Shown here piece by piece: positions 10,082 through 31,863 of a DNA stretch of 64,000 bases. The stretch lies in contig JANPJV010000185.1 of assembly GCA_031425695.1 (NCBI GenBank), positions 2,234 to 66,233 on the forward strand, given 5' to 3'. The notes under the pieces were generated by a model, which did no database searches, was not told the origin of the DNA, and was given only the letters and a program-made list of their open reading frames with translations. The translations under genes and the position numbers were made by a program. This DNA is from Rhodanobacteraceae bacterium. GTDB taxonomy: Bacteria > Pseudomonadota > Gammaproteobacteria > Xanthomonadales > SZUA-5. How positions within the stretch are numbered: position 1 is the first letter of the stretch; the number at the start of each line of letters is the position of its first letter.

Positions 10082-11443
10082 TTGACTCAACTTTCATGGC
10101 TCTACGGCGTGCTCGGATTGGCCCTGCTGGCGATGGCTCCGGCTGTCACGGCCGAGCCGGTTTCGCGTCTCGTCGATGTGCGTACCGCGGGCGCTGAGCG
10201 GGTTGCTGCGCTCAAATCAATGCGTGGGGTCGAGTGGTGGCTCGAGCTCGGAGATCACCTGTTGCTGACCGGCGAGCGTAAAGAGCTCGACCGGGTGGCG
10301 GAGCGGACGGCGGACGCCTGGCCCGCGCTCGATCCCGCGGCACTGGTGCTGGAAGCGCGCGGTTGCGGCTTCGATGGCACCAAGCATCTCCCGGCGATTG
10401 CCGAGGCCGGGCGCTTTGCGCTCGTGCGTGTGCCGCCATCGCTGGCGAAGTATCCGGTGCCCGGGCGCGACTGGCGCCCGGTGCAGGTCAATTCCAGCTA
10501 TGCACGGCTGTGGTCGAATGATCCGGCGAAGGCCGCCGCCGGCAGCGCGGGTCCCGATCCGCTGGTACAGCCGCTGGTCGACGCGGTCAATCCAAGCGGG
10601 TGGGTTTCGCGTTTCACGACCCTCGCGGGCTACAACCGCAACACCTTCGGTGCTGGCAGGGTGCAGGCGCGCGACTGGCTGGTTGCCCAATTCCAGGGGA
10701 TCGCCGGCGTCGACAGCGTGACCGTGCCGAGCTTCAGCTTCAGCTACAGCGCCCAGCAGTACACGGCCGAGAACGTGCTCGCGCGCATGCCCGGCACGCG
10801 GCGGCCGAACGAATGGGTGATCGTTGGCGGCCACTATGATTCGCGCAATCCCAACAATGGCCCGGGCGGCAGCAATCCCTCACCGGGCGCGGAGGACAAC
10901 GCCACGGGGTGCGCCGGCGTGATCGAAATGGCGCGCGTGCTGAGCCGTTTCCGTCCGGAGCGCACGGTGCTCTTCATGTGTTACGCCGGCGAGGAGCAGG
11001 GCCTCTATGGCTCGTCCGCCCATGTGGCGGCGTTGCAGCAAGCCGGTGATGTCGCGCGGGTCGTGTACATGCTCAACATGGACATGATCGGCTACAGCGG
11101 CGATGCCGATCTCGATGTCCTGGTCGAGAGCACCAGTCTTGGCGCCGCCTCGTTTGCCCGTTTCGGCGCCCTCGCCGCGATGTATGCGCCGAGCCTGCGG
11201 CTGGTGACCAGCCTGAGCCCGTGCTGTTCCGACCATATGCCGTACTTGAACGCGGGCATTCCAGGCGCGCTGACGATTGCCAATGACTGGGGCTCCTACC
11301 CGCACTATCACCAGGCCACCGACGTGCCCGCCAATGTCACCAATGCACAGGCCATGGGCGGCAACCTCCTGCGCATGAACGCGGCCTTCCTGGCCGAAAC
11401 CGCCCTGGCGTCGGACCGCATGTTCGCGGATGGCCTGGAGTAG
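10082..11443 (+). CDS. Secreted M28 family metallopeptidase with C-terminal DRMFADGLE tail
   Basis: Signal peptide (TTG start, ...AVTA); GGHYDS, PGAEDNATG, AGEEQGLYGS, NMDMIG, SDH, HYH motifs. Confidence 0.9.
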   Translation: MTQLSWLYGVLGLALLAMAPAVTAEPVSRLVDVRTAGAERVAALKSMRGVEWWLELGDHLLLTGERKELDRVAERTADAWPALDPAALVLEARGCGFDGTKHLPAIAEAGRFALVRVPPSLAKYPVPGRDWRPVQVNSSYARLWSNDPAKAAAGSAGPDPLVQPLVDAVNPSGWVSRFTTLAGYNRNTFGAGRVQARDWLVAQFQGIAGVDSVTVPSFSFSYSAQQYTAENVLARMPGTRRPNEWVIVGGHYDSRNPNNGPGGSNPSPGAEDNATGCAGVIEMARVLSRFRPERTVLFMCYAGEEQGLYGSSAHVAALQQAGDVARVVYMLNMDMIGYSGDADLDVLVESTSLGAASFARFGALAAMYAPSLRLVTSLSPCCSDHMPYLNAGIPGALTIANDWGSYPHYHQATDVPANVTNAQAMGGNLLRMNAAFLAETALASDRMFADGLE

Positions 11444-11455
11444 CTTTTGCTTTGT

Positions 11456-11603
11456 GTGGGCTCGGAGGTTGTCCGGACTTTATCCGTGGCAGGAAGGAAG
11501 AGCGTTCGGACAAGGTCCGAACCCACGTGGAGCAGAGCAGATGCGTTCGGACAAGGTCCGAACCCACGTGGAGCAGAAGCGTTCGGAGCAGGTTCGAACC
11601 CGC
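11456..11603. repeat. REP cluster, family A, with tandemly duplicated right arms
   Basis: gcgttcggacaaggtccgaacccacgtggagcaga occurs twice, plus a third decayed copy and a decayed left arm. Confidence 0.85.
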
Positions 11604-11743
11604 CAAGGGGTCTTAACCGACCAGGGACTTAAACCACAAAGCCTCCCACCTGAACGTTCCGCCCAGCCCTGCACGCCATCTTCAGGGCGCCTGGATATCC
11701 TGGTTTGACGCGTTCCTCTACGGGCGCTCACAGGAGCTCACCA

Positions 11744-12115
11744 ATGACTAGATTCTCCATTCTGACGACAGCAATCGCGACTGCGGCACTGGTTTTCGGC
11801 GCTGGCGCCGTCTCCGCGGGCACGCTCGACTCGGTCGTCAACATCCAGAACAACTCGAGCTGGGAAATCCATCAGGTTTATGTCTCGCCCATCGATAAAG
11901 CCGAATGGGGCGACAACTTGCTCAAGGGCAATGTGGTCGAGGCCAAGGGCGGCAGCGTCGAGATCTTCAAGATTGCCTGCGATACCTACGACGTGCGCCT
12001 GATCGACGAGGACGGCGGCGAGTGTGTCGTCCCCGACATCTCCCTGTGCGCCGAAAAGGACGCTTGGGTGATCGAAGACGAGGATCTGCTCGCCTGTCAG
12101 GCAAATACTGAGTAA
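11744..12115 (+). CDS. Small secreted protein of unknown function (4 Cys, beta-rich)
   Basis: aggag RBS, signal peptide, then N.SSWEIHQVYVSP....WG.NLL...C..YDVRLIDEDG.EC. Confidence 0.8.
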   Translation: MTRFSILTTAIATAALVFGAGAVSAGTLDSVVNIQNNSSWEIHQVYVSPIDKAEWGDNLLKGNVVEAKGGSVEIFKIACDTYDVRLIDEDGGECVVPDISLCAEKDAWVIEDEDLLACQANTE

Positions 12116-12124
12116 TGCCCTTCC

Positions 12125-12153
12125 AGCGGGAGCGCCCTTGGCCGCTCCCGCTG
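12125..12153. terminator. Hairpin between convergent genes (probable bidirectional terminator)
   Basis: cagcgggagcg-cccttggc-cgctcccgctg. Confidence 0.6.
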
Positions 12154-12159
12154 TCTCCG

Positions 12160-12966: not shown

Positions 12967-14421
12967 TCAGTCGAACCAGGTCAGAGCCAGCTCGTTGGGG
13001 ACGCTGACGTGGCGCAGGCTGCTGCCGCTGACTTCGATGGTGACTTCAACGACGTGCAGGCCGAGACCTAGCGTGCCGCCGGGTGCGTTCACTGCGCTGA
13101 GGTAGCTGGCGCTTAAGGTGCGGCTGGCGGCGGCGGCGCCTGCGGCGAGCTGCTGCATGCCGATCGCGGCCACGGGTTCGCCGTTGACGCGAATTCCCAG
13201 CAGTGCGGAGGTCAGGGTATCGGCGTTATCGCCCTGGATGCGGGTGCGTGCATTGAACAGCACGATGCCGTCGTGGCCGGGCGGGATGTAGACCTGGGCG
13301 CTGGCGAGCACCACCGTGGTCGACGGCGGCGGACACAGCGGCGCGCCGATGGTGGATGCGACGCAACGCCAAGTGTAGGTCGAGCACGCCTGCGCCGGTC
13401 CGCTCACCGCCGAGCCGAACACGCCACCGCCGCTCGCGCTCAGCATGCGTGCACTGCCGAGCCCCCAGCAAACGCCGTTTTCGTGCGCACCGGGAAAATC
13501 GCTGCCGAAGGCCAGTTCGCTCGCGACCAGCGTCAGCGAGCGCTGCTGCCCGGGTAGCAGGCGGTGCACGCCGTGCAGCATCACCGGGGCCTGCAGCTCG
13601 GCGTTCGGGTCGATGTCGTTGACGCTCCAGGACGCCGAATGCGTCGACTGACAGATCCCGTCGGCGCGCAGGCCGAGCAGGGCGTCACCGTGGCCGCCGT
13701 CGATGCCGCTGTCGCAGGCATGGAAAGCGCGCCCGCTCGCGAGCGTGATCACGTCGAGCGTGCGGCTGCCCTGGTTGCGCAGGCTCTGGGTCAGGACCGG
13801 CAGCAGCGGCCGGTCGGGCGCACCCTCGCGGATATCGATGTTCTGCTCCGGCGCGTAGGTGGTCACCTGGAAATTCTCACTCGGTCCGGACAACGCGGAA
13901 GACAGGATCTGCGAGTGCGGCTGCACCAGCAGCGAAAGGCCGCTGCCGGCGCCGATGCGAAAGCGCCCGGGCCGCGTCGGGTGGGCGCTGGCGACCAGCT
14001 CGATCACATGCACGCCCGCGCCGAGCGTGGCGTCGGCGAGTACATTGAACGCGTGCATGACCGGACGCTGCGTCGAGCCCCAGTCGGTCACCGCGACCGA
14101 ACTCATCGATTCGTCGCCATCGATGCGGATCCGCACCGCCGCTGCGGGCGCATCCACCGGGAAGTGGCGACCGTCGGCAACCGCCACGATGCGTGTCGTC
14201 CGGCTCAGCACGATGGTGCGGCTCGCCACCACGGTCGGCGTTGTTCCGGTGATCAGCAGGTCCGCGTCGATCCGCTGGAAGCTCGACAGCGCGCGGGCGC
14301 AATCCTCGAAGCCATCCGCGCGCAGCACGTCGGGCGCGCTCAACGGGCACGCGTGGGCAGTGCTGGTGCCGAGCAGCAACCAGGCGACGAGAGTCTGCCG
14401 AACATTCAAGGGGAAGCGCAT
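12967..14421 (-). CDS. Secreted hypothetical beta-rich protein with N-terminal DVLRADGFE motif
   Basis: Signal peptide ending TAHA; repeated beta-sandwich-like units (LGAGVHVIEL / LGLGLHVVEV). The 5' extension in the ORF track runs through a REP. Confidence 0.75.
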   Translation of the reverse strand: MRFPLNVRQTLVAWLLLGTSTAHACPLSAPDVLRADGFEDCARALSSFQRIDADLLITGTTPTVVASRTIVLSRTTRIVAVADGRHFPVDAPAAAVRIRIDGDESMSSVAVTDWGSTQRPVMHAFNVLADATLGAGVHVIELVASAHPTRPGRFRIGAGSGLSLLVQPHSQILSSALSGPSENFQVTTYAPEQNIDIREGAPDRPLLPVLTQSLRNQGSRTLDVITLASGRAFHACDSGIDGGHGDALLGLRADGICQSTHSASWSVNDIDPNAELQAPVMLHGVHRLLPGQQRSLTLVASELAFGSDFPGAHENGVCWGLGSARMLSASGGGVFGSAVSGPAQACSTYTWRCVASTIGAPLCPPPSTTVVLASAQVYIPPGHDGIVLFNARTRIQGDNADTLTSALLGIRVNGEPVAAIGMQQLAAGAAAASRTLSASYLSAVNAPGGTLGLGLHVVEVTIEVSGSSLRHVSVPNELALTWFD

Positions 14422-14471
14422 GCGCGAATGATGCATCGGCCATGGTGAATGCTTAGGTGGGTGCCGCCTAC

Positions 14472-14585
14472 GTGGGTTCGGGCCTTGTCCGAACGCTTTG
14501 CCTACCGGTACGGAAAAGCGTCCGAACAAGGTTCGGACCCACAAGAGCAAACGCCAAGGAGCGTCCGAACAAGGTTCGGACCCAC
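14472..14585. repeat. REP cluster, family A (one left arm, two right arms)
   Basis: gtgggttcgggccttgtccgaacgct ... agcgtccgaacaaggttcggacccac twice. Confidence 0.88.
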
Positions 14586-14719: not shown

Positions 14720-15574
14720 ATGAAAGGGTTGCGAGAGATCACGCTGGGGGCGTGTTTGTTGGCAGTGTCGAGTGCGGCCCCGGCGGCCGCCTACTTGCGC
14801 GTCTTGTCCTGGAACACCTTGCACGCGGGCTACGCCAATTCGACCGACTGGCCCGGCTACGCGGCGCAGGCTTGGAACGATTTCGGTACCACCGCCGCCG
14901 CGGCCAACGGCGTCGATGTGATCTTCGCCCAGGAGGTGATGTACGACACCGCCGCGGCGAGCCTCGCGAGCGCGCTCACCGCCATCAGCGGCGTGACCTG
15001 GGATTACCGGGTGACCGCGGCCATCGGGCGCAGCAGCTACAAGGAACGCTACGCGGTCCTGTTCCGAACCGACCGCGTGACCCTGCTCTCCTCGACGGTG
15101 TGGGTCGATACCGGCGACAAATTCGAGCGCGAGCCGCAGATCGTCAAGCTGCGCCAGATCCAGACCGGCGAGGACTTTACCTTCATCAACTGGCACACGA
15201 TCTTCGGCGAGACCGCCGAGCGCCAGGCCGAGATCGCGGCGATCTCTTCGGTGTTCAGCTCGGTGCAGTCGGGCAGCAGCTCGGACCAGGACGTGATCCT
15301 GCTCGGCGACCACAATCGCGACTCCACTTCGCCGTGGTGGGCGAACCTGACCGCGGTGTCGCCCGTCGTCAGCTATCGCGTGAATGACCTGACTTCGATC
15401 AATACCAGCTGCGCGTTTGCCAGTGCCTACGACCATTTCTGGTTCCAGGCCAGCTACGTGAGCGAGTACTCGAGCTCGGGCCGTGACTACGCCGCCAGCA
15501 TGTGCGTGCTGCGCGACTTGTCCGACCATGCGCCGGTGTTCCTCAATCTGTATTCGAGCTCCGACACCGATTGA
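14720..15574 (+). CDS. Secreted DNase I-like endonuclease (EEP family)
   Basis: Signal peptide; LSWN, AQEV, GRSSYKERY, FEREP, LLGDHN, AYDH and SDHAPV motifs. Confidence 0.9.
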   Translation: MKGLREITLGACLLAVSSAAPAAAYLRVLSWNTLHAGYANSTDWPGYAAQAWNDFGTTAAAANGVDVIFAQEVMYDTAAASLASALTAISGVTWDYRVTAAIGRSSYKERYAVLFRTDRVTLLSSTVWVDTGDKFEREPQIVKLRQIQTGEDFTFINWHTIFGETAERQAEIAAISSVFSSVQSGSSSDQDVILLGDHNRDSTSPWWANLTAVSPVVSYRVNDLTSINTSCAFASAYDHFWFQASYVSEYSSSGRDYAASMCVLRDLSDHAPVFLNLYSSSDTD

Positions 15575-17280
15575 TGGTGCGACGGGCTTGGGGCAGGGCG
15601 CTCCTGGCTGGCACCTTGGTGCTGGCCGGGTCCTGGTGGGGATGGGAGCGCTCGACGACCGCACCCGACTCGGTGCCAATGGCGGCGTCGCGCGGAGCCG
15701 TGGCGCCGGTCGTTGCGCTCGACGGCGCCCCGGCGGCATCCACCACTGATTCGGAGCAACCCGCGCCTTCGGGTATCGAGATCCAGCTGCTCCCCGACGG
15801 CGTGGTCGGCGCGCGCGCCGACTCTGTGCGCATCGGCCTGGCGCAGATCTCTGCGGAAGACGCGCGGGTCTACCAGGAATGGCTCGATGGTGGTTCGCAG
15901 GGCGCCGGGCCCGCCGAGCGCTCCGAGCTCGCAACCGTGGAACGTTGGGCGCCAGCCACCGCCACGCGCAATCCCGATGGCAGCGTGAGTGTCGGCCCGC
16001 TAGCCCTGCCTTTCGCCGATCGCTACGACCTGCAGGCGCGAGGCGACGACGCCCTGCATTTCTGGCTGGCCGCGTTCACCGCGCCGGCGCCGCCGGCCAC
16101 GATCAGCCCGACCATCGCCGCCGGGCTGCGCATCCAGCACGGGTTGCCGCCGGGCAGCGCGGCGCGCGTGCTGCTGCGGCGAGTCGGTGAGCCGCAGGAC
16201 GCGCCCCGGTGGCAGCACTTGTTGGCGCGCGAAGCGCCGGCGCTGCTCGCGGCAATGAATGACAGCGCGCTCACCGTCGCGCCTGGACAGGTGCTCGCGC
16301 CGCTGCCGCCCGGACCGCTGACCGTGATTCTCGAGGTCGACGGTGTCGAAGCGCAGCGGCTGGCGGTGCAGCTCGCCGCCGGTGCGATCTCCGACGTCAG
16401 GTTCGATCCGCTGGTGGCTGAAGCCGTGCGCTCGCTCAGCATCGATCTCGAAATGACCTTCCAGGTCGAAGGCACGCGTGAACCGATTGGGCAGGTCAAG
16501 GCCGTCACCGAGACCGCGAACGGCGAGGTCGCGCGCGAGAGCGATGAGCGCGGTCGCGTGCTGTTCGAGAACCTGGATCGCCAGCGGCAAGCCCGCTTCA
16601 ACCTCAGCTTTCCGCGTGCCGAAGGCGGGCTGCCCAGCTGGCCGGAACAGCGCGCGCTCGAGCTCGATCTCGATACGCTGGCCCAGGCTGCCACTGCTTC
16701 ACCCGCGGCCGGAAAGCGCATGCGCGTGAGCAAGACCGTCGAGCTGCGCCCGCTTCAGTGGCTGCTCGCGAGCGTGGGCGGATTCCCGCTCACCACGCAA
16801 CGCAGCGTCGGCGATCCGTGGCCGATCTTCGTGCTGCAACGGGAGCAGGACGGCCTGTGGGCCGACGTCTCAGCCGACTACTTCCTGACCGTTCCCGAGG
16901 GGCTCGCGGTATCGATCGAATCCTCGGGCAGCTTTCGCGTCGCAGCCGTGCACCGACCCTGGAGCGTCCACTACTCGACTGCCGCCGATAACCGCCGTCC
17001 GAACGCCGACGGGCGCTATCGCGTCGAACTCGACCGGCTGCCCGGACGCGCCGTCGAGCTCACCGTCCTGCACCAGGGCCGCACCCTCGCGCACGCGCCG
17101 ATCGATGTGCGCGGACCGATCCGCGGCATGCCGGATCCCAGTTTGGAAACCGATGCCAGCGGACGCCTGCAACTGGAAGCGGTTACCGTGCCCAGCGTGC
17201 GTGTCGAAGTTCCCGGCTTCGAAGTTGCCGAGGTCCCGCTGCGCGCGGCGTTGACGACGGTGGAGTTGCAGCGGGAGTAG
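15574..17280 (+). CDS. Membrane-anchored hypothetical protein with carboxypeptidase-regulatory-like beta domains
   Basis: TGATG overlap with the nuclease gene; N-terminal TM; RESDERGRVLF and ETDASGRLQL...VEVPGF repeats. Confidence 0.7.
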   Translation: MVRRAWGRALLAGTLVLAGSWWGWERSTTAPDSVPMAASRGAVAPVVALDGAPAASTTDSEQPAPSGIEIQLLPDGVVGARADSVRIGLAQISAEDARVYQEWLDGGSQGAGPAERSELATVERWAPATATRNPDGSVSVGPLALPFADRYDLQARGDDALHFWLAAFTAPAPPATISPTIAAGLRIQHGLPPGSAARVLLRRVGEPQDAPRWQHLLAREAPALLAAMNDSALTVAPGQVLAPLPPGPLTVILEVDGVEAQRLAVQLAAGAISDVRFDPLVAEAVRSLSIDLEMTFQVEGTREPIGQVKAVTETANGEVARESDERGRVLFENLDRQRQARFNLSFPRAEGGLPSWPEQRALELDLDTLAQAATASPAAGKRMRVSKTVELRPLQWLLASVGGFPLTTQRSVGDPWPIFVLQREQDGLWADVSADYFLTVPEGLAVSIESSGSFRVAAVHRPWSVHYSTAADNRRPNADGRYRVELDRLPGRAVELTVLHQGRTLAHAPIDVRGPIRGMPDPSLETDASGRLQLEAVTVPSVRVEVPGFEVAEVPLRAALTTVELQRE

Positions 17281-17419: not shown

Positions 17420-18334
17420 TCACCCCGCCTTGATCCACCCCGCCGCTATCCGCCCGACTTCGGCAAGGACGGCGTCGTCTTCGGGCCGCATCTTTTCGTG
17501 GTGGCCGTCCGCTTCGAAGTACGCCGCAATCACGATCGGCTTGCGCTCAGGAAGCCAGACCACGGCGACGTCGTTGTGCTTGTTGGGCATCTTTTCCGAC
17601 ACCGCGGTGCCGGTCTTGTCGCCGGCCTTCCAGTCGGCCGGCAGCCCGGCGCGGATGCGCTTCATGCCGGTGGTGGTGGCGATCATCCATTCGGCCAGGC
17701 GCTCGCGGGAGGCTGGCGTGAGCAGCTTGCCGCTCATCATCCGCGCGACCAGCTCGGCCATCGCGCGTGGCGTGGTGGTGTCGCGCTCCTCGTCGCCGGT
17801 GACCAGGTTCATCGCCGGCTCCATGCGGTCGATGCGGGTAACCTTGTCGCCCATGGCGCGAAACAGCTCAGTCACCGCCTGCGGTCCGCCGAGCTTGGTG
17901 ATCAGCAGGTTCGCCGCCACGTTGTCGCTGGTTTTCTGCGCCGCTTCGGCGAGATCGCCAATGCGCATGCGGCCCGCTTTCAAATGCTCGGTGGTGACCG
18001 GCGCATGCGCGACCATGTCCTTTTCGCCGTACTCGAGAAAATCATCGAGAGACAGGCGACCGCCATCGGCCTCGCGCAGGACCGCTGCGGCCAGCGGCAG
18101 CTTGAAGGTCGAGCACAGGCCGAAGCGCTGGTCCGAGCGGCGGCCCAGCTCGCGACCGGTGCCATCCAGCATATGTACGCCAAGCCGCCCGCCGGACAGG
18201 CGTTCGGCCTCGGCCAGTGCATCGTCGAATTGCTGGCTTGCGCCCGGCGCCGTGGCCCGGGCACCCAGGCCGAGGCTGAGCCCGGCCATGCCGAGCGCCA
18301 CCAGAAGGCTGCGCCGCTGCAGATTGGTATTCAT
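17420..18334 (-). CDS. bla: Class A serine beta-lactamase with Tat-type signal
   Basis: STFK, SDN, omega loop [17 protein letters not shown]; RRSLL twin-arginine leader. Confidence 0.95.
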
Positions 18335-23307: not shown

Positions 23308-24563
23308 GTGCGGTCACCAGCGCCAGCGGGCCCTCACGGCTGTTGGTCGGCACTGATCTCCAGCGCGAGATCGAGCGCTTGGCGGTATCCGGCGGCGGCC
23401 GTTGCGGGCTCATGCTGGTCCATCTGCGCCGCATGCGCCAGGTCAGCGCGCTGCTCGGCAGCGCCGCGGCGCTGGCGCTGCTGCATGCGACCGAAGCGCG
23501 CCTCTCCGAATTGCTGCGACCGATCGACCGCGTGTTCCTGGTGGCGCCCAATGAACTGCTGGTGGTGCTGCCCAAGCTCATGAGCCGCGAGCACGGGGTG
23601 CTGGCCGCGCGCAAGGTGCTGCGCCAGTTCGAGATTCCGATCCAGGTGCTGGAACGTCCGATGACGCCGGTGCTGACGCTGGCGCTCGCTGTCGCCAAGG
23701 ATGCGGCCGAGGCGATCGAGAGCGTGATCGGGCGTGCCCAGGGAGCGCTCGACCAGGCGCTCGAGCTGAACCGGCGCCTGGTCGTGGCGTCGGATGCGGC
23801 CAAGGAAGCGTGGCTGCTCGACGACCTGCGCGACGCGCTGGTCAACAACGAGCTCAGTGTGCACTTCCAGCCGGTGTTCGCGCTCGCCGAAAATCGCATC
23901 GTCGCCGTCGAGGCGCTCGCGCGCTGGAATTCGGAGCGCCACGGGGTGATTTCGCCCAACCGCTTCATCGCGCTCGCCGAACAGACCGGCCTCGCGCCCG
24001 AGCTCACGCGCTGGGGCGTCAATGCGGTATTGCGCGAGTACGCGCCGCTGCGCCACAGTCGCCCCGACCTGCGTTGCGCTTTCAATCTTTCACCAAAGGT
24101 CATCGGCCAGTTCGGGCTGGAAGAACAGATCCACTCGGCCCTGGCCATCTGGGATATCCCGGCCAGCTCACTGGTACTCGAAGTCACCGAATCGGCCGTG
24201 ATGGAAGACCCCGAGCTCAGCACGGTCGTGCTCAGGAACCTGCGCGAGCGCGGGGTGACCATCTCGATCGATGATTTCGGCCAGGGCTATTCCTCCTTCA
24301 CCTATCTCAAGAACTTCCCCGCCACCGAGCTCAAGATCGACCAGTCCTTCGTCACCGCGATGGGCACCGACGCGCGCAGCCGGCAACTCGTCAAAGCCAT
24401 CATCAATCTCGCCCACGACCTCGGCATGCAGGTCGTCGCCGAGGGCGTCGAAGACCAGATCGTCCTCGACCACCTGATCGAGCTCGGCTGCGACATGGCC
24501 CAGGGCTACCACCTCGCCCGCCCGCTGGCCAAGGAAGAGCTGCTCAAGCTGCTGCAGGAGTGA
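23304..24563 (+). CDS. EAL phosphodiesterase with degenerate GGDEF domain
   Basis: GTG start overlapping the upstream TGA; APNEL in place of GGDEF; EAL, LEVTES, IDDFGQGYSS, LKIDQSF, VAEGVE, AQGY. Confidence 0.92.
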   Translation: MSAVTSASGPSRLLVGTDLQREIERLAVSGGGRCGLMLVHLRRMRQVSALLGSAAALALLHATEARLSELLRPIDRVFLVAPNELLVVLPKLMSREHGVLAARKVLRQFEIPIQVLERPMTPVLTLALAVAKDAAEAIESVIGRAQGALDQALELNRRLVVASDAAKEAWLLDDLRDALVNNELSVHFQPVFALAENRIVAVEALARWNSERHGVISPNRFIALAEQTGLAPELTRWGVNAVLREYAPLRHSRPDLRCAFNLSPKVIGQFGLEEQIHSALAIWDIPASSLVLEVTESAVMEDPELSTVVLRNLRERGVTISIDDFGQGYSSFTYLKNFPATELKIDQSFVTAMGTDARSRQLVKAIINLAHDLGMQVVAEGVEDQIVLDHLIELGCDMAQGYHLARPLAKEELLKLLQE

Positions 24564-27014: not shown

Positions 27015-27414
27015 TCGCGAGTGCGGGGCGCGGCTTTCGTCTGCGTCCCGAAATCGCGCCGGTGTCGGCTTTGCTCTACGTAGAGTGGAACTTGCTCCAC
27101 TACTTAGCCCATGACGCGCCAAGCAAGGAAAAGCAGCGGAGCTCGCTCCGCTGCCCTTGGCTTCGCTGCGCCCGTGTAGGACTTGCGACATTTTCAAAAA
27201 AAGCCTCCAGCCCCGCTGAGCACGCCCCGGCAACACGCCCGAAAAACCGTTGAACAGGTTGGCAAGGCGCCGTGCCCATAAAGCGGCCGATTCTTAAATA
27301 AAAAGCCAAGTATTCATCTACGCGGCCCCAATTCACGGACCCAGCACACTCGTGCTGTAAAGTGATTTCAGGCTCGGGACAATGGTTTCCCGGCACCGAC
27401 CTGGGGGGTCACCA

Positions 27415-29571
27415 ATGAATTCCTTATTGAAATTGCGCAGCGTTAGCTGCGCAGCGATGGCGCTTGCGTGCGTGAATATCAGCTACGCCAGTGACATCGA
27501 ACCAAATTCAAATGCGGCGGCCGCAAGTGCCCGTCACGCGAGCCTTCCGCTGCGATTCGAACCGAACGTCGGGCAAATCGACCCGTCGGTCGACTTTATG
27601 GCGCGCGGCAATGGATATACGATGTTTCTGACGCCCAAAGAGTCCGTACTCGTATTTGGCGCGCCGGCACATTCGGCCAGTGACGCGGTCTCCAAAACCG
27701 CCGCTAAAACGCCAGCCGTCTTGCGCATGCAGTTTTCCGGCGCGAACCCGGCGCCTGAGCTCACCGGCGTCGACGCTTTGCCGGGAATTACCAACTATTT
27801 CATCGGCAGCGACCCGGAAAAATGGCGGACGGATATCGTCGCGTTCGCAAAAGTGCGCTACGCCGAGATTTATCCCGGAATCGATCTCGTTTATTACGGC
27901 AACGCCCGCAACGTCGAATACGATTTTGTGCTGGCAGCCGGCGCTGATGCCGGACAGATCCGCATGAAGATCGTGGGCGCGGAGCGCATGGCGGTCAACG
28001 CCGATGGCGAACTCGTCCTTGGCGTGGCGGGCGGCGAGCTGCGCCAGCCGGCACCGTTGATCTACCAGCAAGGGACGACCGGCAAGACCTTGGTCTCGGG
28101 CAGCTATGTGCTGCATGGCAAGGAGGTCGGGTTCGCGCTTGGTGCCTACGACCGCACGCGGGCGCTGGTCATCGATCCCGTGCTCATCTATTCGACGTAT
28201 CTCGGCGGCAGCGGCTTCGATCAGGTCAACTCGATCCATGTGGGCCCGACCGGCGACGCCTACGTGACCGGCGTCACCAGCTCGGCTAATTTCCCGCTCC
28301 AGGGGACACCGAGTTCTGCGTACGGTGGTAGCCAGGACCTGTTCGTGACCAAGCTCCGTCTCGCGGGCAGCGGGCTCACCTACTCGACCTACATCGGTGG
28401 CATCGGGGACGACATCGGCAACGACATCGTCGTCAGCGGTGCCGGTACCGCGTATGTCACCGGCTCGACCACGTCGATCAATTACCCGGTCGTTACCCCG
28501 ACCATCGCCGCCCAGGTCGGCGGTACGGATGCCTTCCTGACCAAGCTGACCGCGGCCGGCAATGGCATCGTTTACTCGACTTACTGGGGCAGCACCGGCT
28601 TCGAGGAGGGCACCGCAGTCACCGTCGATCCGGCGGACAATGCCTACATCTCGGGCAACACCAGCGCGCCCAATTTTCCGACGCAGACCGCATTCCAGGC
28701 GGCCCTCGCCGGCGGCATGGACGCGTTCATGACCAAGTTCAGCGTAGCCGGTAATTCGATCGTCTACTCGACCTATCTCGGTGGCGCGCAAGACGACCGG
28801 GCGACCGACATGAGGGTGGCGGACGACGCGGCGGTGTTCGTGATCGGCAGTACCACGTCGGCCAATTTCCCGATCAAGTCACCGGCCTTGCAGGGCAGCC
28901 TTGGCGGCGGGCGCGACGCCTTCCTCACCCACTTCAGCCTGGCCGGCAATGCACTGCTGTACTCGACCTTCATCGGCGGCGCGAGCGATGACGAAGCGCT
29001 CGGGATGACCATCGACGCGCCCATGAATGCCTACGTCACCGGCCGCACCGCCTCGGTCAATTTCCCGACGCAGGTTCCCATGCAGGGAAGTCATGGCGGC
29101 GGGGCCACGGATGCTTTCGCGATCAAGATCAATCCTCCGGGCAGTGCGATCGTCTTCTCGACTTTCCTCGGTGGCCTCGGCGATGACAGCGGACACAGCG
29201 TCGCGCTCGATACCACGCGCAACGTATTCCTGACCGGCAGTACCACTTCGGGCAACTTCCCACTGCTGCTCGCGTTCCAGAACAGCCTCGGCGGCGCGAC
29301 CGATGCTTTCGTCACCAAGCTCGCATTGAGCGGCAGCGCGTTGATCTATTCGACCTACCTCGGCGGCATCAGCGCCGATGCGGGTCATGGCATCGGCGTC
29401 GACCTCGTCGGCAACGCCTACGTCGCCGGCTACACCGAGTCGATCAACTTCCCAACCACCGCTGCATTCCAGTCCGCCTTTGGCGCGGTGCGCGACGGCT
29501 TCGTGTCCAAGATCGCGGAAACGAATGACCTCGATCTCATCTTTGCCGACGGCTTCGAGTCGCAGAACTGA
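27415..29571 (+). CDS. Secreted SBBP (seven-bladed beta-propeller) repeat protein with C-terminal DLIFADGFE tail
   Basis: Signal peptide; FEPNVGQ...YPGIDLVYYG...LVIDP N-terminal domain; seven ~60-aa YSTYLGG-type repeats. Confidence 0.92.
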   Translation: MNSLLKLRSVSCAAMALACVNISYASDIEPNSNAAAASARHASLPLRFEPNVGQIDPSVDFMARGNGYTMFLTPKESVLVFGAPAHSASDAVSKTAAKTPAVLRMQFSGANPAPELTGVDALPGITNYFIGSDPEKWRTDIVAFAKVRYAEIYPGIDLVYYGNARNVEYDFVLAAGADAGQIRMKIVGAERMAVNADGELVLGVAGGELRQPAPLIYQQGTTGKTLVSGSYVLHGKEVGFALGAYDRTRALVIDPVLIYSTYLGGSGFDQVNSIHVGPTGDAYVTGVTSSANFPLQGTPSSAYGGSQDLFVTKLRLAGSGLTYSTYIGGIGDDIGNDIVVSGAGTAYVTGSTTSINYPVVTPTIAAQVGGTDAFLTKLTAAGNGIVYSTYWGSTGFEEGTAVTVDPADNAYISGNTSAPNFPTQTAFQAALAGGMDAFMTKFSVAGNSIVYSTYLGGAQDDRATDMRVADDAAVFVIGSTTSANFPIKSPALQGSLGGGRDAFLTHFSLAGNALLYSTFIGGASDDEALGMTIDAPMNAYVTGRTASVNFPTQVPMQGSHGGGATDAFAIKINPPGSAIVFSTFLGGLGDDSGHSVALDTTRNVFLTGSTTSGNFPLLLAFQNSLGGATDAFVTKLALSGSALIYSTYLGGISADAGHGIGVDLVGNAYVAGYTESINFPTTAAFQSAFGAVRDGFVSKIAETNDLDLIFADGFESQN

Positions 29572-30159: not shown

Positions 30160-30241
30160 GCGTGCTTGCCTCCCGGCAAAGGGGCGGCATTGTGCGGGAA
30201 TTGTCATGCGTGCGCGCCTGACGCGTCGCGTGCGACGGAAC

Positions 30242-30331
30242 GTAGGCCGCAGTGCGCGCGGCGGTTTGCGCGCTCTGCGGCGCTTGGGATCTAAAGGCGC
30301 CGCAGAGCCGCTTCGCGGCACAGCGGCCTAC
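30242..30331. repeat. REP-like doublet (GTAGGCCGC family)
   Basis: gtaggccgcagtgcgcgcggcgg ... ccgcttcgcggcacagcggcctac. Confidence 0.65.
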
Positions 30332-31491
30332 TCGAAGCCGCTCGCATGCAGCGCCTCGGCGAGCTCATACGCGCCAATGTCGATCACGCCGGTGTTCACC
30401 CGCGCCGCCCGCAAGGCCGGGTGCAGATAGACGAAGTCCGGGCTCAGCGCCTGTCCACCCACGCTCCCGGGCGCGACGCCCGCGTCGATAGCAGGCGAGC
30501 CCGGCTGTAGCCGGTAGTCGTACTGTGCCGGGGCCACGAACAGCGGGTTGGTCGCCACCAGGTTATTGCTCAGCACCGCGCCCGCCTGGTTGGTCACCGA
30601 GCCCGCGCCGAAAAAGATGTTGTTGCGCGCAACGATCGGCAATGGCGTCGCTGCAGCCACCTGCATGAAGGTGCCGGCGCCGCGGTTGTTGACGAACGTA
30701 TTGTTGATCACGAACAGGCGCGATTCCGGATGTGCGCCGCCTTCGCTCAGGTAGTCGAGCATAGCGCCATTCTGCGACGTCGCTGGCTGCTCGACCAGGT
30801 TGCCGATGACGAACGACAGTCCGCCGTTCGGCAGGTTGATTTCGTAGCTCTCGGTGCCGCCGGTCTCGCCGGTCAGGCGGTTGTAGAGGATGTGGTTCTC
30901 GCGGGCACGTGACTTGAGCAGGTGGCCGACGCGCGCGCCATGCGACCAGTTGTAGCGGAAATTCAGTCGATCGACCGCATTGACGTAGAGGTTGTGCGAC
31001 TGGCCATCGCCTGCCCCGTTGTCGGCAAATTCGCTGTATTCGATGGTGATGGTGCTGCCGGCCACGCTGTTCGCGAGGATGCCGTTCTGGTTGTTGCGGA
31101 AAAGCACGTTGCGCACGATCAGGTTGCGGCCCTCCTGGCGGATGCCGGCGCCATTGTCGTCGGGAACCGTTGCGCCGCTGAGCTCGATATTCTCGATCGT
31201 CGTGTCGTTGCCGACGATTACCCAGATCGCCTTGCCCTGTGAGCTCTGTCCGGCCGCATCGATGCGCGCACGCCCGTTGACCCCGATCAGGGTCAGCCCG
31301 TTCTTGCTCCAGGCGCAGACGTTGCCGTTGTAGCTGCCGGCCGCGTCGATGCGGATGGTGTCGCCGTCATTGGCGGCCGCAATGGCCGCACAAGGCGTCG
31401 CGAACGGCTGGCCAGGGCCGACATTGAGCACGGCGGCACCTGTGGCCAGCGCCGCCGACCACAGACCCATTCCCACCCACGCACGCAACAT
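30328..31491 (-). CDS. Secreted right-handed parallel beta-helix protein with DIGAYE (choice-of-anchor Q-like) end and EALHASGFE tail
   Basis: Signal peptide; Asn-rich beta-helix repeats (DDNGAGIR, HNLYV, GHLLKSRA, NNTFVN, ARNNIF); DYRLQPGSPAIDAG...DIGAYE. Confidence 0.88.
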   Translation of the reverse strand: MLRAWVGMGLWSAALATGAAVLNVGPGQPFATPCAAIAAANDGDTIRIDAAGSYNGNVCAWSKNGLTLIGVNGRARIDAAGQSSQGKAIWVIVGNDTTIENIELSGATVPDDNGAGIRQEGRNLIVRNVLFRNNQNGILANSVAGSTITIEYSEFADNGAGDGQSHNLYVNAVDRLNFRYNWSHGARVGHLLKSRARENHILYNRLTGETGGTESYEINLPNGGLSFVIGNLVEQPATSQNGAMLDYLSEGGAHPESRLFVINNTFVNNRGAGTFMQVAAATPLPIVARNNIFFGAGSVTNQAGAVLSNNLVATNPLFVAPAQYDYRLQPGSPAIDAGVAPGSVGGQALSPDFVYLHPALRAARVNTGVIDIGAYELAEALHASGFE

Positions 31492-31633
31492 CGAGAGCCT
31501 CCCGTCAGTTCGACCGTACCGCGACTATGCCCAGCCACAGCGTTGCTGACGTTGACGCACTGCTCACCCGGATCTTCTCATTGGTCGACTTTGCGCGGGC
31601 TGGTACCTTGTCGTAACGTTGGGGCTGCTCTGC

Positions 31634-31707
31634 GTGGGTTCGGACCTTGTCCGAACGCTTTCCCCGCAGTCGGGCAGTAAAAGCGTCCGGACAAGGTCCG
31701 GACCCAC
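31634..31707. repeat. REP doublet, family A
   Basis: gtgggttcggaccttgtccgaacgct ... agcgtccggacaaggtccggacccac. Confidence 0.9.
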
Positions 31708-31710
31708 AGG

Positions 31711-31863
31711 CACGGTCTTCCCCGTGCGCCTTCGATCAACGCCAGTGGCGATATCGCCTTCATCGCCGCCCTGCACCCGGCGGACAACAACCAGGTCGAG
31801 TGGGGCACGGGCGTGTTTGTTGCCCATGCGCAAACGACGTTGTTTGCAGACGGCTTCGAATAG
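31711..31863 (+). pseudogene. Orphan 3' gene fragment ending LFADGFE-stop
   Basis: Manual translation: HGLPRAPSINASGDIAFIAALHPADNNQVEWGTGVFVAHAQTTLFADGFE*. No start codon at its 5' end, an in-frame TAA at 31678, and it begins right after a REP. Confidence 0.75.

What the first reader, a model, noticed from the sequence alone, without database searches (positions are those of the whole stretch)
11414..31863. Recurring terminal FADGFE tag on unrelated secreted proteins: candidate novel sorting/anchoring system
Seen in sequence: the M28 peptidase ends SDRMFADGLE* (11414-11443). The SBBP propeller protein ends DLDLIFADGFESQN* (29533-29571). The beta-helix protein ends AEALHASGFE* (30328-30357, minus strand). 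A gene remnant ends TTLFADGFE* (31837-31863). A fourth intact secreted protein carries PDVLRADGFED just after its signal peptide (14305-14331, minus strand). All intact carriers have Sec-type signal peptides and unrelated folds, and none of the cytoplasmic or inner-membrane proteins here ends this way. Established: SBBP, M28 and DIGAYE (choice-of-anchor Q-like) proteins in other phyla often end in exchangeable sorting modules such as the T9SS C-terminal domain or PEP-CTERM. Inference: this ~9-aa motif fills that anchor slot but has no TM helix or basic tail, so it is not a sortase, exosortase or rhombosortase substrate. It may be a beta-strand docking or export signal. I know of no functional characterisation, and no cognate machinery is identifiable in this window.
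Basis: partly seen in the sequence, partly recalled or inferred. Interest (0 to 1): 0.88.

Follow-up and report, generated by a model that had tools for sequence, protein, structure and literature searches.

The report
Short GFE tail on exported proteins
About a hundred unrelated exported proteins of this soil-type bacterium and its whole order end in the same seven-to-nine-residue peptide, which behaves like an undescribed address or docking tag whose reader is still unknown.

Summary
In my own gene call, 97 of 3973 ORFs of this genome end in D-x-[LIVM]-F-x-[N/D/S]-G-F-E. 75 of them stop exactly at the Glu. F-x-[NDS]-G-F-E occurs 65 times at C-termini against 0.23 expected.

Carriers:
- are almost all Sec-exported;
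- are depleted in lipoproteins;
- fall into 49 unrelated sequence clusters and 46 Pfam families.

The tail is selected at protein level, not as a DNA repeat. It is invariant across orthologues behind a variable linker, and AlphaFold models it as a disordered tail. It sits where homologues elsewhere carry T9SS domains, dockerins or membrane anchors.

It is present in 11 of the 12 families of the order (Lysobacterales/Xanthomonadales-like) sampled. It was not found above background in 397 other genomes of the class. One family uses a concerted dialect (D-R-F-E plus 1-6 residues), which argues for one co-evolving reader.

No reader was identified. MacB permeases, secretins and CarboxypepD_reg proteins do not track it. 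PknS-like receptor kinases with periplasmic TPR domains track it in number and lie near tagged genes in 5 of 6 genomes, but their ectodomains share no conserved site.

The scan had already noted this tail on other DNA, including another piece of this genome. I found no paper describing it.

The parts
9968..11443 (+). Exported M28 aminopeptidase gene. The tag M-F-A-D-G-L-E is at 11420-11440 and the stop at 11441-11443.
   Evidence: ORF and tail. Peptidase_M28 at 1.4e-37, residues 269-459. The AlphaFold model (pLDDT 90.5) ends its fold with helix 398-417 of the mature chain; the last ten residues average pLDDT 53 and the last four are below 50.
27382..29571 (+). Exported DUF7948 + SBBP beta-propeller protein gene. 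The tag I-F-A-D-G-F-E is at 29539-29559, followed by S-Q-N and the stop.
   Evidence: 34 of the 45 best database relatives keep D-[FL]-I-F-A-[DN]-G-F-E. Tag columns are 31-34 of 34 identical, apart from D 24 / N 10 at one position, while linker columns -14 to -9 hold 7-11 different residues.
30328..31491 (-). Exported right-handed beta-helix protein with a choice-of-anchor Q domain. The tag L-H-A-S-G-F-E is at 30331-30351 and the stop at 30328-30330.
   Evidence: Beta_helix at 1.5e-08. NCBIfam choice_anch_Q at 25.9 bits (cut-off 25), residues 326-377, directly before the tail.
31681..31863 (+). Open 60-codon stretch ending T-T-L-F-A-D-G-F-E-stop, with no gene body in front. Probably the 3' remnant of a tagged gene, lying behind a pair of REP-like palindromes.
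   Evidence: Translation. No BLASTP relative in the genome, and palindromes at 31638 and 31685.
12967..14550 (-). Exported protein of no Pfam or NCBIfam family, with a related element V-L-R-A-D-G-F-E at 14305-14328 just behind the signal peptide, between two cysteines.
   Evidence: The element (C-P-L-S-x-x-[DE]-V-x-[RL]-A-[DT]-G-F-E-x-C) is conserved in the 5 family members whose N-terminus could be read (G000 plus 4 of 7 related loci).

Best explanation
The GFE tail is a short linear peptide tag, consensus D-x-[LIVM]-F-x-[N/D/S]-G-F-E. It is joined by a variable linker to the C-terminus of proteins that have crossed the inner membrane by the Sec pathway. Most likely it acts after export as an address or docking peptide. 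In that reading it hangs disordered off the folded protein and is bound, as a peptide, by one conserved envelope component. That component either holds the protein at the cell envelope or hands it on across the outer membrane. The tail would then play the part that T9SS C-terminal domains, dockerins or membrane anchors play in homologues of other lineages.

Shown here: its existence, enrichment, exported carriers, protein-level selection, disorder, slot equivalence, lineage range and lineage dialects.

Inferred: that it is read by a partner, and that the outcome is sorting or retention.
For: 1. Scale and position. 97 of 3973 ORFs carry it. There are 65 C-terminal F-x-[NDS]-G-F-E against 0.23 expected.
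2. Carriers are exported. 81 of 97 have a signal-peptide-like start against 1332 of 3876 other ORFs (crude predictor). Most of the 16 misses show a visible signal peptide or are contig-edge fragments. Lipobox-like sites are rarer than in other exported proteins: 7 of 97 against 139 of 869, p 0.024.
3. Carriers are unrelated. They form 49 BLAST clusters without their tails, and 40 representatives hold 46 Pfam families.
4. Selection acts on the protein.
   - Downstream DNA is not conserved.
   - All three stop codons are used.
   - Synonymous codons vary: Gly GGC 42, GGG 16, GGT 9, GGA 8; Glu GAG 53, GAA 21.
   - The tag is invariant behind a variable linker in 34 orthologues.
5. It is a free tail. 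In the M28 model (pLDDT 90.5) the last ten residues average 53. It is also not part of the domain that follows it in a few giant proteins.
6. It occupies the anchor slot.
   - M28 relatives in other phyla end in Por_Secre_tail/FlgD_ig or Dockerin_1.
   - SBBP relatives end in a hydrophobic helix plus basic tail, a TIGR03437-named module or about 270 residues of repeats. The five close orthologues with that extension lack the tag.
   - Carriers match choice-of-anchor Q, C and J models and parts of rhombosortase- and myxosortase-dependent M36 models.
7. Range.
   - Strict DNA pattern: 13-60 hits in all 24 same-family genomes searched, 49 in G000, reversed-pattern controls 0-1.
   - Either pattern: hits in 11 of the 12 families of the order sampled.
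   - The remaining family, f2: 0 hits in 3 genomes with both patterns.
   - The 397 other genomes of the class: strict pattern 0-4, loose pattern 0-5 (controls 0-4).
8. A concerted dialect. In genome G429, 23 of 27 pattern hits read D-R-F-E instead of [ND]-G-F-E. Of 20 sites read out, 15 are followed by 1-6 residues and a stop, and none ends at the Glu. A change shared by many unrelated genes of one lineage is what co-evolution with one common reader predicts.
Against: - No localisation data exist. Every step after 'exported by Sec' is inference.
- No candidate machine co-varies with the tag. MacB_PCD (rho 0.42 outside the own family), Secretin (about 3 copies everywhere) and CarboxypepD_reg (rho 0.46) do not discriminate.
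- The tag is not strictly terminal.
   - 22 of 97 carriers have 1-4 further residues.
   - 17 of 34 SBBP orthologues have 1-9 more.
   - 18 copies are internal or follow the signal peptide.
   - A 76-member family has about 97 residues behind it.
- Some carriers contain families that are usually periplasmic, such as di-haem cytochrome c peroxidase (CCP_MauG). Secretion to the outside is therefore not implied.
- The gene call, the signal-peptide predictor and the DNA-pattern counts are crude tools of my own.
Confidence: 0.5

Rival explanations
1. The tail is the ligand, or part of the ligand, of the expanded PknS-like receptor Ser/Thr kinases. These have a cytoplasmic Hanks kinase, one membrane helix and a periplasmic TPR domain of about 450 residues. 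Exported proteins would show their tails to the TPR domains. The kinases would then signal through ECF sigma factors or FHA-GGDEF enzymes, so that the cell monitors or couples its exoproteome. The tag would be a signalling device, not a sorting device.
For: - G000 has about 45-50 such kinases.
- Proximity in G000: 11 of 50 kinases have a carrier within two genes, against 4.0 expected (p 0.0015), or 4.8 expected if the labels are drawn from exported proteins only (p 0.006). Four of the six immediate pairs are co-directional, two with overlapping stop and start. Other large paralogue families sit at background.
- Proximity elsewhere, counted as kinase domains within 5 kb of a pattern hit:
   - G436: 10 of 39 against 4.9 expected.
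   - G439: 11 of 49 against 4.9.
   - G429: 6 of 19 against 1.4.
   - G432: 7 of 19 against 1.9.
   - Combined p 3.7e-6 with G434 included.
- Counts co-vary. Rho is 0.84 over the 16 genomes outside the own family and 0.71 over 12 family means, while genome size gives 0.24.
- The only tag-free family, f2, has 4-5 kinase matches in the two of its three genomes that were scored.
- X. citri PknS has this architecture, needs its periplasmic domain and has no known ligand (PMC13147305, passages read).
- TPR domains are classical readers of C-terminal peptides (recalled: Hsp70/Hsp90 EEVD, PTS1-PEX5).
Against: - The tag is nearly invariant, but 19 kinase ectodomains of G000 share no column at 90% or more and are only 15-28% identical. 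One motif read by 45 divergent sites is unparsimonious. So is the concerted Gly-to-Arg shift in G429, which has 21 kinase matches.
- G434 shows no proximity: 2 of 38 against 2.3 expected.
- G430 has 6 strict hits with 4 kinase matches.
- Proximity may simply mean that a kinase/ECF-sigma module regulates its neighbouring gene.
- The tag metric (larger of two patterns) and the 5 kb threshold were chosen after seeing data.
- Related genomes are not independent samples.
Confidence: 0.17
2. The tail needs no protein reader. Its two phenylalanines and a branched hydrophobic residue, flanked by acidic residues, would stick the protein to a non-protein envelope component. That component could be lipopolysaccharide or exopolysaccharide, perhaps through divalent cations, or the tail could load the protein into vesicles.
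For: - No co-varying machine was found.
- The motif tolerates short extensions, internal sites and a site just behind the signal peptide.
- Carriers are poor in lipoproteins, as expected if the tail is their only anchor.
Against: - Seven residues with near-invariant Gly/Arg, Phe and Glu positions, and a lineage-wide switch from Gly to Arg, look like a stereospecific protein site rather than a loose amphipathic patch.
- Nothing here tests lipid or sugar binding.
Confidence: 0.1
3. The tail is a processing or boundary element, or a vestige, not an address. It would be the start of a lost lectin/MAM-like or other C-terminal module, or the site at which such modules are clipped off, kept only because it caps the preceding domain.
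For: - In two G000 proteins the motif is followed, about 45 residues later, by a stretch with weak InhA-like MAM similarity that opens E-D-F-E-G-x-x-x-G-W (16-19 bits, cut-off 26.9).
- An Acidobacteriota M28 orthologue ends L-F-F-D-G-F-E-S-G-D-T-S-S-W-G-A-V-A-P. Earlier scan notes describe that longer form as copying the first strand of a lectin-like domain.
- A conserved 97-residue domain follows the tag in 76 representative proteins.
Against: - A vestige would decay. Instead the tag is invariant in orthologues down to about 60% identity while the adjoining linker varies freely.
- It is present on about 100 genes per genome across the order.
- It is not modelled as a strand of the domain before it or after it.
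- The MAM matches are below threshold.
Confidence: 0.1
4. The tail is an artefact: a DNA repeat, mobile element or terminator that happens to be translated at gene ends, or a chance motif.
For: REP-like palindromes are very common right after genes here, including after the M28 gene and before the remnant.
Against: - The 40 bases after the stop show no conserved column.
- All three stop codons are used, and codons within the tag vary synonymously.
- Reversed-pattern controls give 0-2.
- The Poisson p for the enrichment is about 1e-133.
- The same peptide is encoded in an AT-rich relative with quite different codons (G432).
Confidence: 0.01

Closest known systems
T9SS C-terminal sorting domain (PF18962 / TIGR04183, FlgD_ig-like variants)
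   Same: It sits at the extreme C-terminus of many unrelated Sec-exported proteins, up to about a hundred per genome, and is lineage-restricted. It occupies the same slot in M28 relatives of Zixibacteria- and Ignavibacteriales-labelled genomes.
   Different: The T9SS domain is a folded beta-sandwich of 70-100 residues read by a known machine in Bacteroidota and allies (recalled). Here the tag is 7-9 disordered residues in a proteobacterial order, with no Pfam match to the tail and no machine identified.
Tripartite C-terminal sorting signals (LPXTG/sortase, PEP-CTERM/exosortase, GlyGly-CTERM/rhombosortase, MYXO-CTERM/myxosortase)
   Same: A short signature motif on many exported proteins. Carriers share 'choice-of-anchor' domains and regions with rhombosortase- and myxosortase-dependent M36 peptidase models.
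   Different: Those signals need a transmembrane helix and a basic cluster after the motif (recalled definition). Here 75 of 97 proteins stop at the Glu and the rest have at most 4 more residues.
Dockerin-cohesin docking
   Same: A terminal module on diverse secreted enzymes that binds non-covalently to a receptor. A Dockerin_1 domain ends one distant M28 relative.
   Different: A dockerin is a folded calcium-binding domain of about 60-70 residues (recalled). No cohesin-like receptor or scaffold was found. The repeat proteins hit by the search with the extension domain are compositional matches.
Extreme C-terminal peptides read by TPR or PDZ domains (Hsp70/Hsp90 EEVD-TPR clamp, PTS1-PEX5, outer-membrane-protein YxF tails activating DegS); all recalled
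   Same: Very short, disordered, acidic or aromatic C-terminal motifs read as peptides. The DegS case is envelope signalling by the tails of exported proteins. The candidate partner here has a periplasmic TPR domain.
   Different: Those motifs need the free terminal carboxylate. Here the motif tolerates 1-9 extra residues, and in G429 none of the 20 sites read ends at the Glu. Binding to any TPR domain is untested.
PknS-EcfK (ECF43) receptor kinase signalling of Xanthomonas citri (PMC13147305)
   Same: The kinases that track the tag share the PknS architecture. At least 10 of 50 have an adjacent ECF sigma-like gene (PF07638 matched in the two members scanned).
   Different: PknS is one kinase with three TPRs controlling a type VI secretion system, with an unknown signal (passages read). 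Here there are about 45-50 paralogues with longer ectodomains. Twelve sit next to FHA-GGDEF or EAL proteins. No link between PknS and any C-terminal tag is in the passages I read.

Membership tests
Tripartite sorting signals (sortase, exosortase, rhombosortase, myxosortase substrates) | The signature motif is followed by a hydrophobic membrane-spanning helix (definition recalled). | tested here: not met
   75 of 97 carriers end at the Glu, and the other 22 have 1-4 further residues.
Tripartite sorting signals (sortase, exosortase, rhombosortase, myxosortase substrates) | A cluster of basic residues at the extreme C-terminus (definition recalled). | tested here: not met
   The tails are acidic. 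The residues after the Glu are mostly G, S, N, A or P.
Tripartite sorting signals (sortase, exosortase, rhombosortase, myxosortase substrates) | A cognate sorting enzyme is encoded in the genome. | not tested
   No search for sortase, exosortase or rhombosortase genes was run.
T9SS C-terminal domain | A folded C-terminal domain of about 70-100 residues matching PF18962 or TIGR04183. | tested here: not met
   No such Pfam or NCBIfam match in the window carriers. The tail is 7-9 residues long and modelled as disordered.
Type I secretion C-terminal signal | Substrates lack an N-terminal Sec signal peptide (definition recalled). | tested here: not met
   81 of 97 carriers have a signal-peptide-like N-terminus by a crude predictor. 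Several of the misses show a visible one.
Outer-membrane-protein beta-signal | The last residue is aromatic and closes a beta-barrel (definition recalled). | tested here: not met
   The last residue is Glu in 75 of 97 carriers. The carriers are soluble folds such as M28, propellers and beta-helices.
TPR- or PDZ-read C-terminal peptides | The motif must be the very C-terminus, with a free carboxylate. | tested here: inconclusive
   75 of 97 carriers in G000 end exactly at the Glu. Against that, 17 of 34 SBBP orthologues carry 1-9 extra residues, and none of the 20 sites read in G429 ends at the Glu.
TPR- or PDZ-read C-terminal peptides | Direct binding of the peptide by a TPR or PDZ domain. | not testable with these tools
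   This needs binding assays or structures.
NCBIfam choice-of-anchor families | A match to a choice-of-anchor model directly upstream of the terminal module. | tested here: met
   The window beta-helix protein matches choice_anch_Q at 25.9 bits (cut-off 25), residues 326-377 of 387. Among 40 representatives, 2 match choice_anch_Q and 1 matches choice_anch_C at E up to 0.001. One matches choice_anch_J at 25.6 bits, below its cut-off of 30.
PknS-type receptor kinase modules (for the associated kinases, not the tag) | An N-terminal Hanks kinase, one membrane helix and a periplasmic TPR region. | tested here: met
   Pkinase plus TPR_12/TPR_10. Most of the 50 family members have a kinase motif near residue 200 and a single hydrophobic segment near residue 390.
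PknS-type receptor kinase modules (for the associated kinases, not the tag) | An adjacent ECF43-group sigma factor. | tested here: inconclusive
   10 kinase neighbours form one BLAST family; the two members scanned match Sigma70_ECF (PF07638), and a separate sigma gene upstream of kinase g413 also matches it. Assignment to group ECF43 was not tested.

The most novel reading that the evidence does not exclude
The GFE tail is the missing periplasmic signal of PknS-type TPR receptor kinases. Lysobacterales label about 2% of their proteome, namely their exported enzymes and adhesin-like proteins, with a common C-terminal peptide. Dozens of receptor kinases read this peptide and convert the state of the exoproteome into ECF-sigma transcription and c-di-GMP signalling. 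This would be a self-monitoring system for secreted proteins with no known counterpart in bacteria.
Probability: 0.15. Interest if true: 0.92.

Novelty: new variant of a known kind. Interest (0 to 1): 0.8.

Why it matters
If the tail is an address or docking tag, it defines a new way of sorting or holding exported proteins in a Gram-negative envelope. It would have about a hundred clients per genome across a whole order of soil, sludge and marine Gammaproteobacteria. A seven-residue tag is also small enough to transplant onto reporters or enzymes.

It has probably escaped notice because the one family of the order without it (f2; 0 hits in 3 near-complete genomes) may be the well-studied one. 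That identification is my inference, not a test.

The tag gives a direct handle on two open questions:
- how large Sec-exported proteins without known secretion signals are routed in these bacteria;
- what the periplasmic TPR domains of PknS-like kinases sense.

The lineage dialects (Gly or Arg at one position, with or without one or two extra residues) offer a natural specificity-swap experiment.

Tried and rejected
1. Complex prediction. I paired the TPR ectodomain of the kinase at C10:50529-53306 (alignment A3) with the tail of its overlapping upstream carrier (alignment A4). The score was 0.01 against a mark of 0.32. The tool's verdict was 'no answer', so this counts neither for nor against binding.

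2. MacB/FtsX permeases as reader. 5 of about 12-13 paralogues lie near carriers in G000. Their counts do not follow the tag, however. G432 has 2 MacB_PCD matches with 47 strict tag hits, and the tag-free f2 genomes have 7-11.

3. Secretins/T2SS. There are about 3 matches in nearly every genome, tagged or not.

4. Oar-like or CarboxypepD_reg proteins. No relation to the tag was seen.

5. Stop-codon bias. Exact carriers use TGA 33, TAA 23, TAG 19, against 2509/470/897 for other ORFs. This is explained by the Glu-ending context: p is 0.18 against other ORFs that end in Glu.

6. The 97-residue domain behind the tag in giant DUF11 proteins, tested as a fused 'receptor in cis'.
   - The tag region is modelled at low confidence and is not a strand of that domain.
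   - Foldseek found no PDB match at E 0.001 or better.
   - Only 2-3 copies exist in G000.
   - The multi-stretch hits P0048 and P0068 are repetitive Ig-like proteins, not scaffolds.

7. M28 orthologues in tag-free genomes, sought to see what replaces the tail. Only distant paralogues at about 30% identity exist there. Endonuclease I served instead.

8. Tag islands of G436 and G439. Beyond kinases they showed no recurrent non-carrier family with a G000 counterpart.

9. Literature.
   - 'NGFE' with 'C-terminal' as whole words gave 0 papers.
   - 'DGFE' gave 116 papers. All 20 listed were unrelated.
   - Six hexapeptide strings searched inside words hit only 'Fangfeng'-type words in the 20 listed, with 0 occurrences of FADGFE, FRNGFE, FRDGFE or ADGFE among them.
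   - Supplements of PMC13147305 were not seen. They may list the Xanthomonadales ECF43/kinase pairs.

10. An early reading that G429, G433 and G434 have kinases but no tags was wrong. It came from a pattern that demanded Gly and an immediate stop.

Full report
**What is in the window.**
- The M28 peptidase (9968-11443, +) ends ...SDRMFADGLE.
- The DUF7948/SBBP propeller protein (27382-29571, +) ends ...LIFADGFESQN.
- The beta-helix protein with a choice-of-anchor Q domain (30328-31491, -) ends ...ALHASGFE.
- A 60-codon open stretch with no gene body ends ...TTLFADGFE, with the stop at 31861-31863.
- ORF 12967-14550 (-) has ...VLRADGFED... just behind its signal peptide.

Pfam and NCBIfam place the three intact carriers in unrelated families, and no model covers the tails. 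None of the other roughly 47 window ORFs in my gene call ends this way.

**Genome-wide census.** The window is contig C185:2234-66233 of a 5.81 Mb draft with 323 contigs and 64.7% G+C. I made a rough gene call of my own: codon-usage scoring, ORFs of 80 residues or more, 3973 ORFs covering 83% of the DNA.
- F-x-[NDS]-G-F-E occurs 75 times. 65 of these lie within 8 residues of a C-terminus, against 0.23 expected from the internal rate. The reversed motif occurs 0 times at C-termini.
- GFE is the commonest C-terminal tripeptide: 75 ORFs, with the next at 26.
- With the wider rule [DNS]-G-[FLM]-[ED] within 4 residues of the end there are 97 carriers, or 2.4% of ORFs. 75 of them stop at the Glu. 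A few of the 97 are clearly false, such as an OmpA-like ...NDGFDD and ...DASGME.
- The logo, with counts out of 97, is D(36) x [L44 I19 V15 M9] F(70) [A36 R25] [N54 D32 S11] G(97) F(91) E(95). The motif rule itself required G at -2 and allowed only F/L/M at -1 and E/D at 0, so those three columns are not independent evidence.

**Who carries it.**
- 81 of 97 carriers have a signal-peptide-like start, against 1332 of 3876 other ORFs (odds ratio 9.7). The heuristic is crude and tries alternative start codons, so it over-calls. Of the 16 misses, several show an obvious signal peptide, the window M28 among them, and several are contig-edge fragments.
- Lipobox-like sites are rarer than in other exported proteins: 7 of 97 against 139 of 869, p 0.024.
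- Without their last 15 residues the carriers fall into 49 single-linkage BLAST clusters, 38 of them singletons.
- I scanned 40 representatives out of the 49 clusters. I left out those over 1300 residues, the window's own three, and a few beyond the cap, and I added one kinase-adjacent carrier. They hold 46 Pfam families: GH44, M14, M28, reprolysin-like, endonuclease I, esterases, CHRD, CAP, FG-GAP, PD40, Big_5, di-haem peroxidases and others.

**Not a DNA artefact.**
- The 40 bases after the stop show no conserved column.
- All three stop codons occur.
- Codons inside the tag vary synonymously: Gly GGC 42, GGG 16, GGT 9, GGA 8; Glu GAG 53, GAA 21.
- An AT-rich relative, G432, encodes the same peptide with different codons.
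- An apparent excess of TAA and TAG stops is explained by the Glu-ending context (p 0.18 against other ORFs that end in Glu).

**Selection and structure.** Among the 45 best database relatives of the window SBBP protein, 34 keep the motif. In those 34:
- the tag columns are 31-34 of 34 identical, with D 24 / N 10 at position -3;
- the six linker columns before it hold 7-11 different residues each;
- 17 end at the Glu and 17 have 1-9 more residues.

An AlphaFold model of the mature M28 protein was built from 32 sequences taken from related loci (mean pLDDT 90.5). It ends its fold with a helix at residues 398-417. The last ten residues average pLDDT 53 and the last four are below 50. In this carrier the tag is a free tail, not a strand of the fold.

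**The anchor slot.**
- M28 relatives in genomes labelled Zixibacteria, Ignavibacteriales and Bacteroidales end in Por_Secre_tail/FlgD_ig (L045, L048, L060, L064). One ends in Dockerin_1 (L033), after further domains.
- Close Lysobacterales orthologues of M28 carry looser tails: FADGVE, FDDSFE, FANGAD, FADAWE....
- More distant SBBP relatives end in a hydrophobic helix plus basic tail, in a module that one source names TIGR03437, or in other domains.
- Five close SBBP orthologues carry about 270 residues of repeats instead of the tag.
- The window beta-helix protein matches choice_anch_Q just above its cut-off, directly before the tail.
- Among the 40 representatives, 2 match choice_anch_Q, 1 matches choice_anch_C, and 1 matches choice_anch_J below its cut-off. 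Several match parts of the rhombosortase- and myxosortase-dependent M36 models.

**Non-terminal copies.** Eighteen matches to the core motif are not terminal.
- Two follow a signal peptide.
- Several sit at domain junctions. Two of these are followed, about 45 residues later, by a stretch with sub-threshold InhA-like MAM similarity.
- Three giant proteins have a further domain of 97-112 residues after the tag. That tag-plus-domain module is a family of 76 representatives, nearly always at the end of proteins of 1000-3000 residues with DUF11-like repeats.
- Its model is confident for the domain (blocks at 87-98) but not for the tag (about 61). It has no PDB neighbour at E 0.001 or better.
- The element behind the signal peptide of 12967-14550 is conserved between two cysteines in G000 and in the 4 of 7 related loci whose N-terminus could be read. 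It has Arg or Leu where the tag has Phe.

**Where it occurs.** M28 orthologues lie in genomes labelled Dokdonella, Ahniellaceae, Rhodanobacter, Lysobacteraceae, Lysobacterales and, at about 40% identity, Acidobacteriota.

A strict DNA pattern for F-x-[NDSG]-G-F-E-stop gave:
- 49 hits in G000;
- 13-60 in all 24 same-family genomes searched;
- 3-75 in most other families of the order;
- 0 in family f2 (3 genomes) and in G429;
- reversed-pattern controls of 0-1.

Named genomes gave 64 hits (Ahniellaceae MAG), 25 (Lysobacteraceae MAG), 10 (Dokdonella MAG) and 9 ('Rhodanobacter' MAG).

A looser pattern, D-x-h-F-x-[NDSG]-x-F-E with no stop required, then showed that G429, G433 and G434 are not tag-free. 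They have 27, 17 and 34 hits with controls of 0-1, while the three f2 genomes stay at 0.

In the evenly drawn class sample the 397 genomes outside the order have 0-4 strict hits and 0-5 loose hits, with controls up to 4. Three genomes flagged unpublished (G039, G296, G141) are among them, at background level.

The endonuclease I orthologue illustrates the pattern. It ends ...LFKNGFE in G000...LFSDRFEAAP in G429, and has no tail in the f2 genome G382.

**A lineage dialect.** In G429, 23 of the 27 loose hits encode D-R-F-E, with Arg in place of Gly. I read out 20 of the 27 sites.
- 15 are followed by 1-6 residues, often ending in Pro, and then a stop.
- 2 are followed by 9-19 residues.
- 3 are not terminal.
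- None ends at the Glu.

Many unrelated genes of one lineage changing the same position together is what co-evolution with one shared reader predicts. It also shows that the free carboxylate of the Glu is not a universal requirement.

The window holds nothing suggestive. I looked at the neighbours of carriers in G000. Two families stood out against a background of 9.4%, while other large paralogue families sat at background:
- a family of about 50 paralogues, with 10 of 49 within three genes of a carrier;
- MacB/FtsX permeases, with 5 of about 12.

The first family is receptor Ser/Thr kinases. They have an N-terminal Pkinase domain, one hydrophobic segment near residue 390, and about 450 C-terminal residues with TPR_12/TPR_10 repeats.

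Permutation in G000 gives 11 of 50 kinases with a carrier within two genes. The expectation is 4.0 (p 0.0015), or 4.8 if the labels are drawn from exported proteins only (p 0.006). Four of the six immediate pairs are co-directional, and two overlap stop and start.

The proximity repeats in other genomes. I counted kinase domains within 5 kb of a pattern hit and compared with the fraction of the genome covered by such windows.

| Genome | Observed | Expected | p |
|---|---|---|---|
| G436 | 10 of 39 | 4.9 | 0.02 |
| G439 | 11 of 49 | 4.9 | 0.008 |
| G429 | 6 of 19 | 1.4 | 0.002 |
| G432 | 7 of 19 | 1.9 | 0.002 |
| G434 | 2 of 38 | 2.3 | not significant |

The combined p is 3.7e-6. I chose 5 kb among three thresholds after seeing the results. 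At 3 kb only G432 is below 0.05 and G429 is at 0.051.

Counts co-vary too. I took the larger of the two pattern counts as the tag metric, a choice made after the event. Spearman correlations with that metric, over the 16 genomes outside the own family, are:
- kinase matches, 0.84 (0.71 over 12 family means);
- CarboxypepD_reg, 0.46;
- MacB_PCD, 0.42;
- genome size, 0.24.

Secretins number about 3 everywhere. The two f2 genomes scored have 4-5 kinase matches.

**What the kinases are.** A 2026 paper describes PknS of Xanthomonas citri (PMC13147305; I saw the search listing and twelve passages). PknS has a cytoplasmic Hanks kinase, a membrane helix and a periplasmic region with three TPRs. It phosphorylates the ECF43 sigma factor EcfK. 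Its periplasmic domain is needed in vivo and its stimulus is not known.

In G000 the recurrent neighbours of the kinases are:
- 10 proteins of one BLAST family, of which the two members scanned match the ECF sigma model PF07638; a separate sigma gene upstream of kinase g413 also matches it;
- 12 proteins of a second BLAST family, of which the three members scanned are two FHA-GGDEF proteins and one EAL protein.

So these are signalling modules, and tagged genes are often part of them.

**Weighing.** The kinase link is real as a statistical association, but it does not show that the TPR domains read the tail.

Against the kinases as reader:
- The 19 ectodomains aligned share no column at 90% or more and are only 15-28% identical, while the tag is nearly invariant.
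- The concerted Gly-to-Arg shift is easier to explain with one reader than with 21.
- G434 shows no proximity.
- ECF modules commonly regulate adjacent genes (recalled), which would explain proximity without any binding.

I therefore rank a single, still unidentified, conserved reader first, with the outcome being sorting or retention. The kinase-ligand reading is the most interesting rival.

**Novelty.** I found no description in print. The three motif searches are listed under Tried and rejected, and the library excludes most subscription journals. No Pfam or NCBIfam model covers the tail.

The scan itself has met the tail before. One note is on another piece of this genome (e1-3575146). Others are on other genomes (e1-3830812, e1-5210297, e1-5205639, and the longer acidobacterial form e1-3949792). 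My results agree with those notes and add:
- the whole-genome census;
- the DNA-level and conservation controls;
- the family-level range within the order;
- the dialect;
- a six-genome test of the kinase link;
- the rejection of three other candidates.

Noticed in passing
window 843, 890, 5862, 5908, 8055, 11504, 11545, 14520, 14563, 25915, 25975, 31638, 31685, 41331, 41377, 41424: REP-like palindromes GTYCGRAC-N3-GTYCGRAC, often in pairs about 45 bases apart in intergenic DNA. There are 16 sites in the window. The count over both strands of the genome is 1242, which is roughly 620 sites because the element is palindromic. They create spurious ORF starts such as ...VRTLSERF... and ...GQGPNPR....
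   Followed up: partly
window, 4 sites; genome-wide 99 (both strands): A second short repeat, TGTAGGTCA[TG]GTTG, recurs just downstream of several tagged genes and elsewhere.
   Followed up: no
G000 C116:50028-59519 (L009), C216:51830-54208 (L010), C251:7176-13913 (L180): A conserved domain of about 97 residues directly follows the tag at the end of giant DUF11-type proteins. The family has 76 representatives. The domain is modelled confidently as mostly beta strands and has no PDB neighbour at E 0.001 or better. Its function is unknown.
   Followed up: partly
G000 genome-wide, e.g. C145:18367-26316: About 45-50 PknS-like receptor Ser/Thr kinases with periplasmic TPR domains. 10 have an adjacent protein of a BLAST family whose two scanned members match ECF sigma model PF07638. 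12 have an adjacent protein of a family whose three scanned members are FHA-GGDEF (two) or EAL (one). One locus reads sigma, kinase, kinase, tagged protein.
   Followed up: partly
G429 (family f246), 27 sites listed: A lineage-specific dialect of the tag: D-x-[LIV]-F-x-D-R-F-E followed by 1-6 residues, often ending in Pro. None of the 20 sites read ends at the Glu. G434 keeps the canonical motif but rarely has an immediate stop (5 strict against 34 loose hits).
   Followed up: partly
P0088 (relative of window 27382-29571): One SBBP orthologue carries the tag twice in tandem...LIFADGFEGTDGLIFADGFEGTNGLR.
   Followed up: no
window 14720-17280 and L161:14401-17092 (G436): The exported endonuclease/exonuclease/phosphatase-like gene and its downstream neighbour are syntenic with a tag island of another family of the order, at 78% and 44% identity.
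   Followed up: no
window 17420-18388 (-), 22075-23307 (+), about 23300-24563 (+): Judged from motifs in the translations only: a class A beta-lactamase-like ORF (S-T-F-K), an HD-GYP protein (HHERHDGSGYP) and an EAL protein. I did not scan them against family libraries.
   Followed up: no
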